Notes under the pieces: generated by a model
Database searches by the model: none
Told to the model about the DNA's origin: nothing
What the model saw: the letters and a program-made list of their open reading frames with translations, nothing else
Shown here: positions 39,444 through 48,276 of the stretch, one piece after another
How positions within the stretch are numbered: the first letter of the stretch is position 1
Layout of the letters: every line of letters starts with the position of its first letter
Position numbers and translations under genes: made by a program
Virus record (IMG/VR): IMGVR_UViG_3300028833_000065
Source: a virus
Lineage: Duplodnaviria; Caudoviricetes
Length of the DNA stretch: 64,000 nucleotides
Reading direction: 5' to 3' (one strand)

Positions 39444-39538
39444 CTTGACAGTGCGGAAATTTAGATGTATAACATCTAAAAATTTGAATTGACATTCTTA
39501 TTATTTAGTAGTATACTTACCTTGTTCTCAGGAAGGAG

Positions 39539-39847
39539 ATGACTATAATGAAGCGAATTGTTAAGAAGCGAATTGTCTTGTATTGCCCTTGGGAAGATGA
39601 AGAAATTATTGGCACAGAAGAGTATGATAGTTCCATACCAGACGAAGATATTCTTAATGCTTTACATGAACAGGGGAAGACTATGTGGCTTCCGACTTAT
39701 CCTGACTATGATGAACTTTGGCTTATGCTACCAGACAATGGTATAATGTTGCCACATTATAAGTTTGGTGTGGATGAATTTTATGTTCAGATACCGACAT
39801 TTTGGGATAAGATAAAAGATGCGCTGTTTGGACGGAAGGAGAGGTAA
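39539..39847 (+). CDS. Hypothetical protein (inverted cassette)
   Basis: TTGACA promoter at 39489; AGGAAGGAG RBS. Confidence 0.65.
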   Translation: MTIMKRIVKKRIVLYCPWEDEEIIGTEEYDSSIPDEDILNALHEQGKTMWLPTYPDYDELWLMLPDNGIMLPHYKFGVDEFYVQIPTFWDKIKDALFGRKER

Positions 39848-39849
39848 AA

Positions 39850-40062
39850 ATGTTTAAAATTGGCGATAAAGTGATGATTGATAATGAGGAACGCTTAGTT
39901 GGTTATATTGTAAGTATAACCATTGACCCGTTGGAAGAATATAGTGTAAAGACAGAAACTGAGTTCAACTTTATTACTTATGTGGTTCGTGTCTTCAAGC
40001 CGTTTTATGTTAATGGATACTCGGACTTCTATCGTATGAGTGATGATTTGACAAGGGTTTAA
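39850..40062 (+). CDS. Small SH3/KOW-like hypothetical protein
   Basis: MFKIGDKV...GYIVSI; terminator AAGGGCGAAAGCCCTT. Confidence 0.6.
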   Translation: MFKIGDKVMIDNEERLVGYIVSITIDPLEEYSVKTETEFNFITYVVRVFKPFYVNGYSDFYRMSDDLTRV

Positions 40063-40132
40063 GGGCGAAAGCCCTTAAATTATTTTAGATGTATAACATC
40101 TAAAATAAAACAAGGCGGTTGCCCGCCTTATT

Positions 40133-40501
40133 TTAGCTATATAACTGACTGATAGCATTGCGCCATGCGATTTCCAACATTTCATATGGGTCTGCCCATT
40201 CTGCTCGGCCAGTATAATGATTAAGTTTTGTGATATCAATTGCGTTATATTCTTTTAAGTCCGCTTCATATGCGGCGAGAATATTACGCACATGCTCACG
40301 GCTTTCTTGTGCCTTTTTAAGTTCAACATCTTTTACGGGGCCATCTGGTAGCATGTTGGCGCAACCTTCATACTTAATAACCTGGGCGCATTTAGCAATA
40401 AGTTCGTTTCTATGCGCGCTGAGGTCAATGGTCAAACGCCTGTATTCGGTATCCTGAAAACTCCACCAAGTATCTTTTGTCTGTTCTTTCTTAAACAACA
40501 T
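40133..40501 (-). CDS. Hypothetical protein
   Basis: Own promoter, RBS and terminator between palindromes 2 and 3. Confidence 0.65.
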   Translation of the reverse strand: MLFKKEQTKDTWWSFQDTEYRRLTIDLSAHRNELIAKCAQVIKYEGCANMLPDGPVKDVELKKAQESREHVRNILAAYEADLKEYNAIDITKLNHYTGRAEWADPYEMLEIAWRNAISQLYS

Positions 40502-40681
40502 TTATTTTTCCTTCTTTCTATTGTTCTTGGGAACAATGCTATTATAGCATATTATAGGAAAATTACAAGAAGAAGATTTAGATGTTTTACATCTAAATAT
40601 TCCTGTTGACTTCTCAATTAAATGGAGTATAATATAGCCATGAACTGAAGGAAAACAGTTGAAACCAGAAAGGGAAAGAAA

Positions 40682-41164
40682 ATGACGAAGTATCTGATTG
40701 TGCGGTGTGAAGAACTGATGGACCAGTATGAGTGCGATGCTAACCGTGAACCGATGTTTCTGGTGGATGATTGGACGAAATGGTATCAGGAAAATCATCC
40801 GAATTATCAGTTTGAAGTGTATAAGTTTGAAGATGATAAAGAATGTACTTTGGAAAAGACTTATGAAGAGTCTATGGATTATGGAATGGCATTATACTTC
40901 TGGAATATGGATGATAGCCATGAAGAAGTAGCGCCGACCGTAATTGCGCATTATAAGGGTTATAATCGCGATAAGAAAGTGCCTAATAAAGTGTGGAACG
41001 TTTTTCGACAGGGTGCTTACTGGGCAGACGGTGATGAATTTACTGAAAAGGACTTTAAGAATGACTTGAGAAGTTGCGGATATGTTGCTTGGGATGATAA
41101 GGAGCATAAGAAATTTTGGGTATATGGGTATTATGCGGACGGGCGCTATTGCTTGGGATATTAA
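40682..41164 (+). CDS. Hypothetical protein (inverted cassette)
   Basis: TTGACT-17-TATAAT at 40606, leader motif, terminator AAGGAGCAAATGCTCCTT. Confidence 0.7.
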   Translation: MTKYLIVRCEELMDQYECDANREPMFLVDDWTKWYQENHPNYQFEVYKFEDDKECTLEKTYEESMDYGMALYFWNMDDSHEEVAPTVIAHYKGYNRDKKVPNKVWNVFRQGAYWADGDEFTEKDFKNDLRSCGYVAWDDKEHKKFWVYGYYADGRYCLGY

Positions 41165-41229
41165 GGAGCAAATGCTCCTTTTTCTTTTTTTAATTTTAGA
41201 TGTTTTACATCTAAAATAAAAAGGATGGT

Positions 41230-41490
41230 CTAAAACCATCCATAGAGAAGAGAAAGAAAATAAATATTAAGAACTACGCTTGACAGATGCATCAGAACAT
41301 CATTGATGTGCCGATGCTGTGAGAGGTCTTTACATACGCCGAAAAGCGCGATTGCGAGTCCGAACCATGAGACTTGAAGGCCGAAGAGCATAATCAGGAC
41401 TACATTCAAGATGGTAATTCCGCACCGAACATCATTCCATTCAAAGCGGTAAGGGGTTTCAATTCCGAACCAATTCTTAATCGTTTCCAT
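41230..41490 (-). CDS. Small membrane protein ending in TAG
   Basis: Hydrophobic segments; the TAG lies inside the terminator hairpin. Confidence 0.6.
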   Translation of the reverse strand: METIKNWFGIETPYRFEWNDVRCGITILNVVLIMLFGLQVSWFGLAIALFGVCKDLSQHRHINDVLMHLSSVVLNIYFLSLLYGWF

Positions 41491-46474: not shown

Positions 46475-46537
46475 GAGCAACTTTTTATTATTAGATGTAT
46501 AACATCTAAAATAGAAAGGTAATGGGAATAAATCCCA

Positions 46538-46768
46538 TTATCTCATATCAACAACCATGAAGTCATCATTTTCCCAAATCTGACCGTAGTTCTTATCTAC
46601 AAAATCAAACTTTTCTTCTTTTGCTTCGGTAAGCAAGGCCGCCATGCGGTTCTGGAGTTCTTCCTTCTTTGCTTTGCGGGCGCAAATAGCGCGAAGTTCG
46701 GTGATGATATCACGAAGTTCCTGTGTGGTCATGATGTCGGTATCAATAATAACTTTTCCAATTCTCAT
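46538..46768 (-). CDS. Hypothetical protein (paralog of 51914..52168)
   Basis: DTD.....EL..II..LR.I.ARK....EL.N....LL.EA.E. Confidence 0.65.
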   Translation of the reverse strand: MRIGKVIIDTDIMTTQELRDIITELRAICARKAKKEELQNRMAALLTEAKEEKFDFVDKNYGQIWENDDFMVVDMR

Positions 46769-46785
46769 TTTTATACTTCCTTTCA

Positions 46786-47034
46786 TTAATCAATAGGGCG
46801 GTTCAATTCTACTTCTTCAATGTAATAAACGCAAGGTGCTATATAATCATTACCTAATGTCTCGTATTCATAGCCATCAAAAGTAAATTCAAACTTTTTC
46901 ATTTCCTCTTCGGTGTAATCCTCTGCTACACGCTCAAGAATTGCTTTCTGTGCTTCGGCGAGAGAAGAATAAACTCCGTCGCCCCAATGCTCATAAGGTT
47001 CAATAATGAATTCTTTTACTGTAAATACCGTCAT
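46786..47034 (-). CDS. Hypothetical acidic protein
   Basis: GVYSSLAEAQKA...YIEEVEL. Confidence 0.6.
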   Translation of the reverse strand: MTVFTVKEFIIEPYEHWGDGVYSSLAEAQKAILERVAEDYTEEEMKKFEFTFDGYEYETLGNDYIAPCVYYIEEVELNRPID

Positions 47035-47145
47035 CTCTTACATCTCCTTTCGACATCATGAATTATAGCATAAGATGGAAAAGAAGTCAAAGCATTTATT
47101 TAGATGTCAAACATCTAAACCATATTTCGGGATTCAATCCCGAAA

Positions 47146-47436
47146 TTATTTTTCTTTCTTTTTCTTTGCCATCTTTTCTTCAAATTCTTCCTTATACAGT
47201 TCTGCATTGGCATACCCATCATAAGGAATGTATCCACCCTCACCATTACGAGTACCACGAGGAGTAGAAACTTTAATAACAATCCATCTCTCGTTTCCTT
47301 CTGCGTCTACGCAAGGAATAGCAAGTTCATTGGCACTTACGGGAAGTACATCAGTGTCATACTGCTTGGACAGAAGTTCCTGAATAGAATTGAGATATTC
47401 AGAGCGCAGAAGGGTTTCAAGCTGAGTTTTATTCAT
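47146..47436 (-). CDS. Hypothetical protein (paralog of 50081..50440)
   Basis: NELAIPCVDAEGNERW...KVSTPRGTRNG. Confidence 0.7.
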   Translation of the reverse strand: MNKTQLETLLRSEYLNSIQELLSKQYDTDVLPVSANELAIPCVDAEGNERWIVIKVSTPRGTRNGEGGYIPYDGYANAELYKEEFEEKMAKKKKEK

Positions 47437-47729
47437 TTACTTTCATCCTTTCGTTAGTCATTAAGAAACATGTAAGAAAATATCAGAAGCATAAAGCCAA
47501 CTATCACAAGGAGAAGAAACGCAGGAATAAAAACACCCCAAATAATTCCCCAAAGCATCAGAATTCCGGCAAGGGCATCTGCTATGTTCATACCGTCATC
47601 TCCTTCCTTTTGACAAGTATATTATAACATAATTTTGAAAAAAGTCAATTATTAAATTAGATGTTTAACATCTAAAAATTCTATTGCTTTTTTCTTGGAA
47701 AGTGATATAATACGCATGAGGTGATAAAG

Positions 47730-48203
47730 ATGAAGCGGTTGACGGTTATTAGGCGGTTCGTTTCAGAAGTGGCATGTGAGAAAGTCGGATTGACAGATGA
47801 TGTTGAATATTGCGCTATGGCGACATTTTCGGGAAGAAAGCGTTATAAAAAGCCGACTATCGGGGTGCCAAAAGATAATTTGATTTGTGAATTACAAGAT
47901 GAAACCACTAAGATTTTTCGTAGAAATTTTACAAGTAGATATTCTGGCGCAAAAGGCTTTGCTAATATCACTTTGGTGTTATTACATGAAGTCGGGCATT
48001 TGAAAACAAGCGAAGAGTTCTGGGGAAATGAAGAAGCAGAAATGCTTGACATGATGATGCGAAGCGCAGTTGAAACGCAAGAAGAGTATATGAAAATTCC
48101 GTCTGAGTATGGCGCAACCGAGTGGGCTATTGGATGGCTACAAGATGCGAACAATCGTTCACTCGCAAAGCGGTTTGAACGGCAGTTCTTTAATGCGGAG
48201 TAA
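47730..48203 (+). CDS. Zincin-like metallopeptidase (inverted cassette)
   Basis: LLHEVGH followed by PSEYGATEWA. Confidence 0.6.
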   Translation: MKRLTVIRRFVSEVACEKVGLTDDVEYCAMATFSGRKRYKKPTIGVPKDNLICELQDETTKIFRRNFTSRYSGAKGFANITLVLLHEVGHLKTSEEFWGNEEAEMLDMMMRSAVETQEEYMKIPSEYGATEWAIGWLQDANNRSLAKRFERQFFNAE

Positions 48204-48276
48204 ATCCGCATTCCTTTTATTTTAGATGTTTTACATCTAAAATTAAATAAAAGAAAAAAAGGGGATATATCCCCTT

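What the first reader, a model, noticed from the sequence alone, without database searches (positions are those of the whole stretch)
39461..48240. Four cassettes are flipped exactly between palindromes
Seen: cassettes 39539-40062, 40682-41164, 45974-46474 and 47730-48203 are on + while the rest are on -. As a result, sites 40578, 45891 and 47657 sit between divergent promoters, each 8-10 bp from a -35. Sites 40085, 41196, 46491 and 48222 sit between two convergent terminators with no promoter nearby, yet are perfectly conserved. Inference: this is the pattern expected from inversion or orientation-free insertion at a symmetric site, and a pure activator/repressor model does not explain it well.
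Basis: partly seen in the sequence, partly recalled or inferred. Interest (0 to 1): 0.85.

Follow-up and report, generated by a model that had tools for sequence, protein, structure and literature searches.

The report
Old cassette flips at phage palindromes
In the early-gene region of an uncultured rumen-type phage, four small gene units face the opposite way from the rest. Each is bounded by the same 19-base palindrome, which looks like a docking site for an unknown two-fold symmetric regulator and is also where relatives gain, lose and occasionally flip units. The flips are old and fixed, not an active switch.

Summary
The palindrome TTAGATGT-N3-ACATCTAA occurs 29 times, all perfect, at 39461-55795 (0.03 expected by chance). 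Four units lie on the + strand. Sites 40578, 45891 and 47657 have a promoter 8-10 nt away on both sides. Sites 40085, 41196, 46491 and 48222 lie between two converging terminators.

- About 30 related IMG/VR contigs carry about 940 copies, one at every unit boundary. Of 39 converging junctions, 37 carry a perfect copy.
- Close relatives differ by exact one-unit insertions or deletions, with the crossover inside the palindrome.
- Protein families, including those of two of the four flipped units, occur in both orientations.
- However, no inversion separates any pair of relatives with at least 78% identical DNA. Orientation is specific to each clade.
- No serine or tyrosine recombinase was found in four near-complete relatives.

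Related phages keep the same layout but use other 8-3-8 palindromes, and both arms change together. This points to a lineage-specific two-fold symmetric DNA-binding protein, still unidentified, with rare recombination at its sites.

The closest known systems are T4-type PeSL cassettes and mycobacteriophage stoperators. This scan already reached the same reading on other DNA (e1-5687331, e1-5687344, e1-2002843).

The parts
39461..55795 (.). Whole array: 28 early-gene units bounded by 29 copies of the 19-bp palindrome. The long arm is read on the - strand.
39461..39479 (.). Palindrome at the left edge of the array, with a + promoter 9 nt to its right
39489..39517 (+). Promoter of flipped unit 1 (TTGACA-17-TATACT)
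39539..40062 (+). Flipped unit 1: two ORFs of 102 aa (family 18) and 70 aa (family 41), function unknown
40056..40081 (+). Terminator of unit 1
40085..40103 (.). Promoter-less palindrome between converging terminators
40106..40135 (-). Terminator of the - strand unit 40133-40501
40133..40501 (-). 122-aa gene (family 30). In most relatives it lies on the same strand as family 18, inside one unit.
40541..40568 (-). Promoter of unit 40133-40501 (TTGTAA-16-TATAAT)
40578..40596 (.). Palindrome shared by two diverging promoters, each 9 nt away
40606..40633 (+). Promoter of flipped unit 2
40682..41164 (+). Flipped unit 2: 160-aa gene (family 29). It belongs to the short + arm that nearly all relatives have.
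41163..41180 (+). Terminator of unit 2
41196..41214 (.). Promoter-less palindrome at the old junction between the short arm and the long arm
41223..41241 (-). Terminator of the last long-arm unit
45853..45880 (-). Promoter of unit 44968-45891
45891..45909 (.). Palindrome shared by two diverging promoters, 10 and 8 nt away
45918..45946 (+). Promoter of flipped unit 3
45974..46474 (+). Flipped unit 3: 166-aa gene (family 8, weak match to phrog_4301, function unknown)
46464..46481 (+). Terminator of unit 3
46491..46509 (.). Promoter-less palindrome. It is also the left crossover point of a one-unit insertion or deletion relative to contig 3300001485_000145.
46520..46540 (-). Terminator of unit 46491-47100
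47621..47648 (-). Promoter of unit 47100-47657
47657..47675 (.). Palindrome shared by two diverging promoters, each 8 nt away
47684..47711 (+). Promoter of flipped unit 4 (TTGCTT-16-TATAAT)
47730..48203 (+). Flipped unit 4: 157-aa gene (family 45) with an HEVGH motif. It faces with the array in all relatives outside the window's own clade.
48192..48212 (+). Terminator of unit 4
48222..48240 (.). Promoter-less palindrome between converging terminators
48257..48278 (-). Terminator of unit 48222-49144

Best explanation
The window comes from a tailed phage that reads TAG as glutamine in its late genes. Its likely host is a Gram-positive rumen or gut bacterium. The phage keeps its early genes as about 28 self-contained units. 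Each junction has a fixed layout: terminator, about 9 nt, 19-bp palindrome, about 9 nt, near-consensus host-type promoter.

I read the palindrome as the docking site of a still unidentified, phage-lineage-specific, two-fold symmetric DNA-binding protein. Most likely this protein shuts off the whole array or acts as a boundary factor (inferred).

The same short sequence is present about 30 times and reads the same on both strands. It is therefore also the place where rare exchanges happen. Exact one-unit gains and losses with the crossover inside the palindrome are shown. Insertion or inversion of a unit in the opposite orientation is inferred from the pattern. Either event leaves exactly one palindrome at each new junction. 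A flipped unit thus creates one site shared by two promoters and one site between two terminators, which is what is seen. Because the site is symmetric, it sits correctly for a promoter on either side, so a flipped unit stays regulated.

The four flips in this window are old, fixed rearrangements inherited by the whole clade. They are not a reversible switch. Two of them (39539-40062 and 40682-41164) belong to the short converging arm that nearly all relatives have. In this clade that arm has been rearranged around the - strand gene 40133-40501.
For: - Layout and numbers. There are 29 perfect copies against 0.03 expected. Across 752 promoter-linked sites in relatives, the -35 starts exactly 9 nt after the palindrome in 603. 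The junction logo shows terminator stem, T-tract, palindrome, TTGACA, TG-extended TATAAT.
- One copy at every kind of junction. Of 39 converging junctions 37 are perfect, and of 18 diverging junctions 17 are perfect, compared with 511 of 563 tandem junctions. The seven segments that looked like converging junctions without a palindrome turned out to be single-gene units.
- Exchange at the site. Units 46491-47100 and 52661-53024 are absent from a 95-97% identical contig, and an extra unit sits at 55515 in G001. The hybrid site keeps the left flank and centre of one copy and the right flank of the other, although the flanks are otherwise unrelated. Of 500 internal alignment ends between relatives, 51% lie within 30 bp of a palindrome centre, against 12.7% at random.
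- Orientation changes exist but are old. Both orientations occur in 32 of 219 families. Trees show orientation fixed within clades separated by about 1 substitution per site. No mixed-strand matches were found among relatives at 78% identity or more. Only 17 of about 658 long-arm units are flipped.
- Evidence for a protein site. Related arrays with the same layout use TTAGACGT/ACGTCTAA, TTAGACGA/TCGTCTAA, TTATACGT/ACGTATAA, TTACACGT/ACGTGTAA or TCGTACGT/ACGTACGA, and each genome is uniform. Of 47 two-mismatch sites, 38 are exact symmetric double changes. Single-arm changes show no excess of G-U pairs on the sense strand (18 A-C against 8 G-U). In L134, extra half-sites overlap the -35 and spacer. 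Converging junctions in two other palindrome types carry that lineage's palindrome.
- No dedicated recombinase. Resolvase and Phage_integrase families are absent from five relatives' records, four of them 95-100% complete.
Against: - No binding protein has been identified. The winged-helix family 1 encoded in the array is missing from at least five well-covered arrays that carry the same palindrome.
- A site that only regulates promoters does not by itself explain why copies between two terminators stay perfect. That needs an extra role (roadblock or boundary, or cooperative coverage of the array) or continuous homogenisation.
- The spacing to the -35 is 4 nt rather than 9 nt in one sub-lineage, so no single helical-face geometry holds throughout.
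- About a third of strong promoter-like sites inside arrays have no palindrome.
- Crossovers need 19 bp of identity or less, which is short for ordinary homologous recombination. This leaves room for a protein-assisted or hairpin-stimulated process.
- No pair of near-identical units in opposite orientation was found, so a crossover at the palindrome is inferred, not shown, for the flips themselves.
- Pfam sees little in these phages, so missing families are weak evidence.
Confidence: 0.55

Rival explanations
1. A dedicated cassette-mobilising system, similar to an integron or shufflon. A phage-encoded site-specific enzyme would recognise the palindrome and excise, insert or invert units in either orientation.
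For: There is one palindrome at every junction, including promoter-less ones. Crossovers map inside a 19-bp site whose flanks share no similarity. Units of one family are found at different array positions and in both orientations. The symmetry and lineage-specific sequence would suit a dimeric enzyme.
Against: No Resolvase or Phage_integrase family gene is present in five relatives' records, four of them 95-100% complete. A 3-nt, largely symmetric centre does not fit the 6-8 bp asymmetric spacer of tyrosine recombinase sites or the 2-bp core of serine invertase sites (my own knowledge). No inversions were found among relatives at 78% identity or more, although one-unit insertions and deletions at palindromes do separate close relatives. 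About 97% of long-arm units face the same way. The fixed spacing to promoter and terminator points to a role in transcription.
Confidence: 0.1
2. A structural or homology element with no sequence-specific protein partner. The palindrome would act as a DNA hairpin or cruciform, or simply as a shared patch like the PeSL motifs, and would be kept uniform within a genome by gene conversion. Flips and indels would be by-products of replication slippage or template switching at hairpins.
For: Symmetric double changes keep the arms complementary. Crossovers lie inside the repeat. Homology breakpoints pile up at the repeat. PeSL motifs in T4-type phages work as recombination patches (PMC2839356, PMC4122927).
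Against: A purely structural element does not need the same sequence at about 30 sites in a genome and in about 940 sites across lineages whose genes are only 65-75% identical. Positions 8 and 10 prefer T and A, which leaves only one unpaired central base, a poor hairpin loop. Isolated half-sites over the core promoter in L134 cannot form a hairpin.
Confidence: 0.12
3. The palindrome is the operator of a host regulator that the phage borrows or titrates, not of a phage protein.
For: The binder was not found in the array. The core is invariant across very divergent phages. A cluster of host DnaA boxes beside the array was noted by another reader (e1-5747246, not checked by me), which would show this phage does use host-factor sites.
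Against: Closely related phages from the same kinds of samples use at least six different palindromes, and some genomes carry two variants in different parts of one array. That is easier to explain with phage-encoded partners.
Confidence: 0.1
4. An RNA-level element. The palindrome would fold in read-through transcripts as a processing or termination hairpin separating the units.
For: It lies immediately after each terminator's T-tract. The arms are complementary.
Against: Single-arm changes on the sense strand give A-C more often than G-U (18 against 8). The site is followed by A-rich sequence, not a U-tract, in both directions. At diverging junctions it lies upstream of both promoters and is not expected to be transcribed.
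Confidence: 0.05

Closest known systems
PeSL (promoter-early stem-loop) cassettes of T4-type phages (Arbiol et al. 2010, PMC2839356; Comeau et al. 2014, PMC4122927)
   Same: Small early genes of unknown function sit in a plastic region. Each is flanked by a composite terminator plus sigma70-type promoter motif. Close relatives differ by insertion, deletion or replacement of single units, with the crossover inside the motif.
   Different: In PeSLs the stem-loop is the G/C-rich terminator itself, it sits at variable positions relative to the promoter, and the consensus is loose. Here the terminators differ from unit to unit. A separate, invariant, AT-rich 8-3-8 palindrome sits at fixed distances from both terminator and promoter, occurs also where there is no promoter, and changes symmetrically between lineages. 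The PeSL paper searched (PMC2839356) does not describe units in both orientations: every 'inver' match in it is 'inverse-PCR'. There is no sequence or lineage relationship, and mini-circles were not tested here.
Stoperators of Cluster A mycobacteriophages (PMC9283540, PMC6550527)
   Same: Tens of copies of one short site are spread through transcribed regions of a phage genome, mostly between genes. Site sequence differs between related phages in step with a phage-encoded binding protein. Bound sites can stop transcription as well as repress promoters, which would give a role to promoter-less copies.
   Different: Stoperators are asymmetric, are read by a monomer and are oriented with transcription (PMC9283540 abstract). 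The sites here are perfectly two-fold symmetric and confined to the early array. No repressor and no integrase were found.
Host-takeover module of Bacillus phage SPO1 (my own knowledge: Stewart et al. 1998, Virology)
   Same: A block of many small early genes with strong host-type promoters, strong ribosome-binding sites and terminators, in a large phage of a Gram-positive host. Two complete relatives here have direct terminal repeats.
   Different: As far as I know, no invariant boundary palindrome is described for SPO1. This was not checked against its sequence here.
Integron attC arrays and invertase systems (shufflons, Hin/Gin)
   Same: Units are bounded by inverted-repeat sites, and some units are in inverted orientation.
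   Different: No integrase or invertase gene was found. Each unit has its own promoter and terminator. The sites are identical in sequence rather than similar only in structure. No orientation polymorphism was seen among close relatives.

Membership tests
PeSL-type modular early-gene cassettes | Composite terminator plus sigma70-like early promoter motif between small ORFs in a plastic region | tested here: met
   Junction logo and scan. There are 28 units of 1-4 small ORFs, and only a weak sub-threshold Pfam match among the ten array proteins tested.
PeSL-type modular early-gene cassettes | Insertions, deletions or replacements between close relatives, with the crossover in the motif | tested here: met
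   Three exact one-unit indels. 51% of alignment ends lie within 30 bp of a site, against 12.7% at random.
PeSL-type modular early-gene cassettes | The stem-loop of the motif is itself the terminator (GGGG..CCCC type), in a T4-like myovirus | tested here: not met
   The terminators are separate hairpins specific to each unit, and the conserved palindrome is AT-rich and is not followed by a T-tract. The phage is not recognisably T4-like. It is therefore an analogue, not a member.
PeSL-type modular early-gene cassettes | Excised mini-circles detectable in infected cells or virions | not testable with these tools
   This needs inverse PCR or long reads.
Site-specific inversion systems (shufflon, Hin/Gin/Cin) | A serine or tyrosine recombinase encoded by the element | tested here: not met
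   PF00239 and PF00589 are absent from five relatives' records, four of them 95-100% complete, in a six-frame search that reads through stop codons. The window's own complete genome is not held.
Site-specific inversion systems (shufflon, Hin/Gin/Cin) | Both orientations of the same segment occur within a population or among close relatives | tested here: not met
   No mixed-strand matches among contig pairs at 78% identity or more. The five closest relatives share all the flips. Read-level data are not available.
Integron | IntI-type tyrosine recombinase, attC sites conserved in structure but not in sequence, and promoter-less co-oriented cassettes | tested here: not met
   No PF00589. The sites are identical in sequence. 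Every unit has its own promoter.
Multi-copy phage operator (stoperator-like) | Many copies of one short site, with site sequence changing between related phages (specificity groups) | tested here: met
   There are 29-41 copies per genome. At least six palindrome types share the same layout. Of 47 double changes, 38 are symmetric.
Multi-copy phage operator (stoperator-like) | An identified cognate DNA-binding protein | tested here: inconclusive
   Family 1 has a winged-helix fold but is absent from at least five arrays with the same palindrome. Family 0 has no fold match.
Multi-copy phage operator (stoperator-like) | An asymmetric site oriented with transcription | tested here: not met
   The sites are perfect palindromes and the centre triplet is near-symmetric.
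N4-type hairpin promoters for a virion RNA polymerase | A phage single-subunit RNA polymerase, and strand-specific hairpin promoters | tested here: inconclusive
   PF00940 was not found in five records, but the control could not ring. The sites show no strand polarity, and each unit already has a near-consensus host-type promoter.

The most novel reading that the evidence does not exclude
The palindromes are the working sites of an unrecognised phage-encoded, two-fold symmetric enzyme or synapsis factor. This factor would actively move early-gene units between sites and between co-infecting phages in either orientation, without a tyrosine or serine recombinase. The different palindromes of related lineages would then define separate exchange groups.
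Probability: 0.1. Interest if true: 0.85.

Novelty: new variant of a known kind. Interest (0 to 1): 0.5.

Why it matters
The result shows how a large family of uncultured, TAG-recoded rumen and gut phages organises and renews its host-takeover genes. The genes come as standard units joined by one symmetric site. That site very probably ties all units to one regulator, and it tolerates units in either direction. The lineage-specific palindromes make a concrete target for finding the regulator: look for the protein whose DNA-reading residues change with the site. They also offer a natural set of orthogonal operator and binder pairs. For the narrow claim of flipping, the outcome is sobering: the flips are rare, ancient and fixed, not a switch.

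Tried and rejected
- A megablast search of the region against GenBank phages found nothing.
- The window's own assembly is not held.
- No tRNA was found in the window.
- DNA alignments between same-family units in opposite orientations were too diverged to map breakpoints.
- One relative, 3300031994_000440, has an extra flipped unit compared with 3300038675_000167. Only its right breakpoint lies at a palindrome; the left one lies in the neighbouring promoter or leader.
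- Family 1 (winged helix) was rejected as the universal binder because it is missing from several arrays.
- Family 0 gave no convincing fold match in Foldseek or VIA-align, and the Atlas look-ups gave no named family.
- Pfam and PHROGs gave almost nothing for the flipped-unit proteins.
- RecT, RecA and ERF families were not found in relatives. Pfam sees few proteins of these phages, so this says little.
- Literature searches for the motif and for similar repeat systems found nothing relevant beyond PeSL and stoperators.
- A scan of genome contigs found only four short MAG contigs (Acutalibacteraceae, Oscillospiraceae, Bacillota). This is a weak host hint, not a prophage.

Full report
WHAT IS THERE. 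The window is phage DNA. Under the standard code it has few long ORFs. With TAG read as glutamine a 3310-aa ORF and many others open up. A portal (phrog_2739) and a weak match to terminase large subunit lie at 59.7-63.1 kb. Between 39461 and 55795 the palindrome TTAGATGT-N3-ACATCTAA occurs 29 times without a single mismatch in the 16 fixed bases, and nowhere else. Shuffled sequence gives 0.03 copies. The copies cut the region into 28 units of 1-4 small ORFs, all in the standard code.

The standard junction, read along the - strand, is: terminator of the previous unit, T-tract, palindrome, 8-10 nt, TTGACA-like -35, 16-17 nt, TATAAT (often preceded by TG), a short leader hairpin, a strong Shine-Dalgarno sequence, then the gene. 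The TG-extended promoters and the strong ribosome-binding sites fit a Gram-positive host. Four short MAG contigs carrying the motif are labelled Acutalibacteraceae, Oscillospiraceae or Bacillota.

CHECK OF THE OBSERVATION. The four + strand units are as stated. Sites 40578, 45891 and 47657 have a promoter on both sides, with the -35 starting 8-10 nt from the palindrome. Sites 40085, 41196, 46491 and 48222 have none. An independent scan places a + terminator directly to the left and a - terminator directly to the right of each.

RELATIVES. A scan of IMG/VR for the palindrome returned 112 stretches. I stitched these into about 39 array segments from about 30 contigs of 10-190 kb. Together they hold 941 sites with two mismatches or fewer, of which 820 are perfect.
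- The common architecture is a long arm of 25-35 units read in one direction, met head-on by a short arm of 2-3 units.
- The -35 starts exactly 9 nt from the palindrome at 603 of 752 promoter-linked sites.
- Classified by the orientation of the two neighbouring units, there are 563 tandem junctions (511 perfect), 39 converging (37 perfect) and 18 diverging (17 perfect).
- Segments that looked like converging junctions lacking a palindrome were single-gene units with a spurious second promoter call.

So there is one palindrome per junction whatever the junction type, and promoter-less copies are at least as well kept as the others. If the palindrome were only the upstream part of each promoter module, a flipped unit would give two copies at the diverging junction and none at the converging one. 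That is not what is seen.

EXCHANGE AT THE PALINDROME. Three contigs are 91-97% identical to the window. Compared with contig 3300001485_000145 the window has two extra units, 46491-47100 and 52661-53024. Compared with G001 (3300021400_000239) it lacks one, at 55515.

In the clearest case the single site of the shorter genome has the left flank and centre triplet of one window copy and the right flank of the other. The flanks of the two copies are unrelated, so the crossover lies within the 19 bp. Across all relatives with at least 85% identity, 51% of 500 internal alignment ends lie within 30 bp of a palindrome centre, against 12.7% for random positions. These ends are not independent events.

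ARE UNITS FLIPPED? I clustered the unit proteins into 219 families. In 32 of them members face both with and against their array, although some of these labels come from truncated arrays.
- Family 8, the gene of unit 45891-46509, has 10 members facing with the array and 7 against, at several array positions.
- Family 45, the gene of unit 47657-48240, faces against the array only in the window's own clade. It faces with the array in 3300028888_000066, 3300028591_000102 and six metagenome loci.
- Family 30 (40133-40501) lies on the same strand as family 18, in one unit, in most relatives. In the window's clade it lies on the opposite strand in its own unit.

BUT NOT A SWITCH. Trees of families 8, 45, 22 and 30 show uniform orientation within every well-supported clade. 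Changes fall only on branches of about one substitution per site. Across all contig pairs with matches of at least 78% identity and 150 bp, none had a segment on the opposite strand. The window, G001, 3300001485_000145, 3300021387_000212 and metagenome locus L117 (98% protein identity) all share the same flips. The flip of family 8 is shared even with locus L120, at 69% identity. Only 17 of about 658 long-arm units are flipped, and those 17 are not independent.

Where family 45 changes orientation its neighbours also change. This looks like insertion elsewhere in the opposite orientation rather than inversion in place. Deriving the window's left end from the common order of the short arm needs about three inversions, or one transposition plus one inversion (my own reasoning). 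Resolvase and Phage_integrase families are absent from five relatives' records, four of them 95-100% complete. The search covered six frames and read through stop codons.

WHAT THE PALINDROME IS. The decisive new evidence came from relatives fetched with a conserved unit protein. Many carry homologous units with the same terminator-palindrome-promoter layout but a different 8-3-8 palindrome:
- TTAGACGT/ACGTCTAA
- TTAGACGA/TCGTCTAA
- TTATACGT/ACGTATAA
- TTACACGT/ACGTGTAA
- TCGTACGT/ACGTACGA

Each of these is uniform within its contig. Within the window's own type, 38 of 47 two-mismatch sites are exact symmetric double changes. They are often clustered in part of one array, for example TTAGGTGT/ACACCTAA in 3300028888_000066. 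Converging junctions in two other types carry that lineage's palindrome. In L134, extra single half-sites overlap the -35 and spacer of each promoter.

Single-arm changes show no preference for G-U over A-C on the sense strand (8 against 18). Positions 8 and 10 prefer T and A, so only one central base is left unpaired. Together these features point to recognition of double-stranded DNA by a two-fold symmetric, lineage-specific protein: two-fold symmetry kept through sequence change, uniformity within a genome, fixed spacing to the promoter, and half-sites that cannot fold.

Because the promoters are near consensus, a repressor or boundary role is more plausible than activation. That step is inference.

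The binder is unknown. Family 1 (two paralogues, 42672-42998 and 43269-43592) folds with high confidence into a C-terminal winged helix, but it is absent from at least five arrays with the same palindrome. Family 0 has no fold match.

HOW THE PIECES FIT. A symmetric site works equally for a promoter on either side. A unit inserted or inverted at the site therefore stays correctly wired, and each exchange leaves one intact site per junction. This explains the 'shared by two promoters' and 'between two terminators' sites without a dedicated invertase.

Two things remain open. The first is why sites between terminators stay perfect and even follow changes of palindrome type. Candidate explanations are a roadblock or boundary function, cooperative coverage of the array, or homogenisation. 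The second is how exchange works on 19 bp or less of identity.

COMPARISON AND NOVELTY. The system works like the PeSL cassettes of T4-type phages (PMC2839356, PMC4122927) and has traits of stoperator arrays (PMC9283540, PMC6550527). It differs from both in having a separate, invariant, two-fold symmetric boundary site with lineage-specific variants. I found no paper on this motif.

The scan has already followed up the same kind of array on other DNA and reached the same reading (e1-5687331, e1-5687344, e1-2002843). I saw those notes after my own analysis and do not count them as evidence.

VERDICT. The idea of a symmetric exchange site is partly right. The idea of active flipping is not supported. 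A regulator site remains the best reading of the palindrome itself.

Noticed in passing
window 39425-39442, 57268-57284, 57294-57311: A second, different palindrome (AGTTAGT-N4-ACTAACT and a near variant) flanks the array on both sides. In related metagenome loci (L120, L126, L128, L129, L132) this one is the abundant repeat, often next to GCCGGC.
   Followed up: partly
L134 (metagenome contig AUXO015994982.1), e.g. 159-260: In the TTAGACGA/TCGTCTAA lineage each junction has, besides the full palindrome, one half-site just upstream and one half-site overlapping the -35 and spacer of the promoter. This layout is typical of a repressor.
   Followed up: partly
L059/L065 (3300028888_000066), L110 (3300028833_000067), L052: Some genomes carry two palindrome variants in different parts of one array (TTAGATGT with TTAGGTGT, or with TTGGATGT). 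Both arms are changed symmetrically.
   Followed up: partly
L033-L092 (3300001528_000197): In this sub-lineage the -35 starts about 4 nt rather than 9 nt from the same palindrome, a shift of half a helical turn.
   Followed up: no
window 43054-43082, 43644-43672, 41922-41949 (- strand): Perfect consensus promoters with no palindrome lie inside units. The two winged-helix (family 1) units each have a palindrome-linked promoter followed by a second one closer to the gene.
   Followed up: no
window 42672-42998 and 43269-43592 (- strand): Two paralogous 107-108-aa proteins are predicted (pLDDT 92) to have an N-terminal helical part and a C-terminal winged helix. The recognition helix and wing are the best conserved part of the family. 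There are 2-4 copies in most arrays and none in several.
   Followed up: yes
window 43891-44877 and 48277-49080 (- strand): Two paralogous early proteins (328 and 267 aa) match phrog_20187, and the 267-aa one also weakly matches a DNA polymerase exonuclease subunit. The family is present in all arrays examined.
   Followed up: no
window 57604-58908 (+ strand, TAG=Q): A 435-aa protein matches a phage sigma-factor family, and in its C-terminal part matches HNH or endonuclease VII-type families.
   Followed up: no
window 47730-48203 (+ strand): The protein of flipped unit 4 contains an HEVGH motif, as in zinc metalloproteases. It has no family match.
   Followed up: no
window 40510-40540, 41885-41915, 43790-43815 and many other units: A short GTTCC..GGAAC-type hairpin follows directly after the -10 element in many units, at the 5' end of the leader. 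Other first-reader notes on this window describe it.
   Followed up: no
L080 9297-9336 (3300021400_000113): Two palindrome copies lie only 2 nt apart (starts 21 nt apart), a rare tandem doublet.
   Followed up: no
L013/L036 (3300031998_000027), stitched positions about 16630 and 17060: A partial duplicate of one half-site lies just upstream of the full palindrome. It may be a footprint of slippage or exchange at the site.
   Followed up: no
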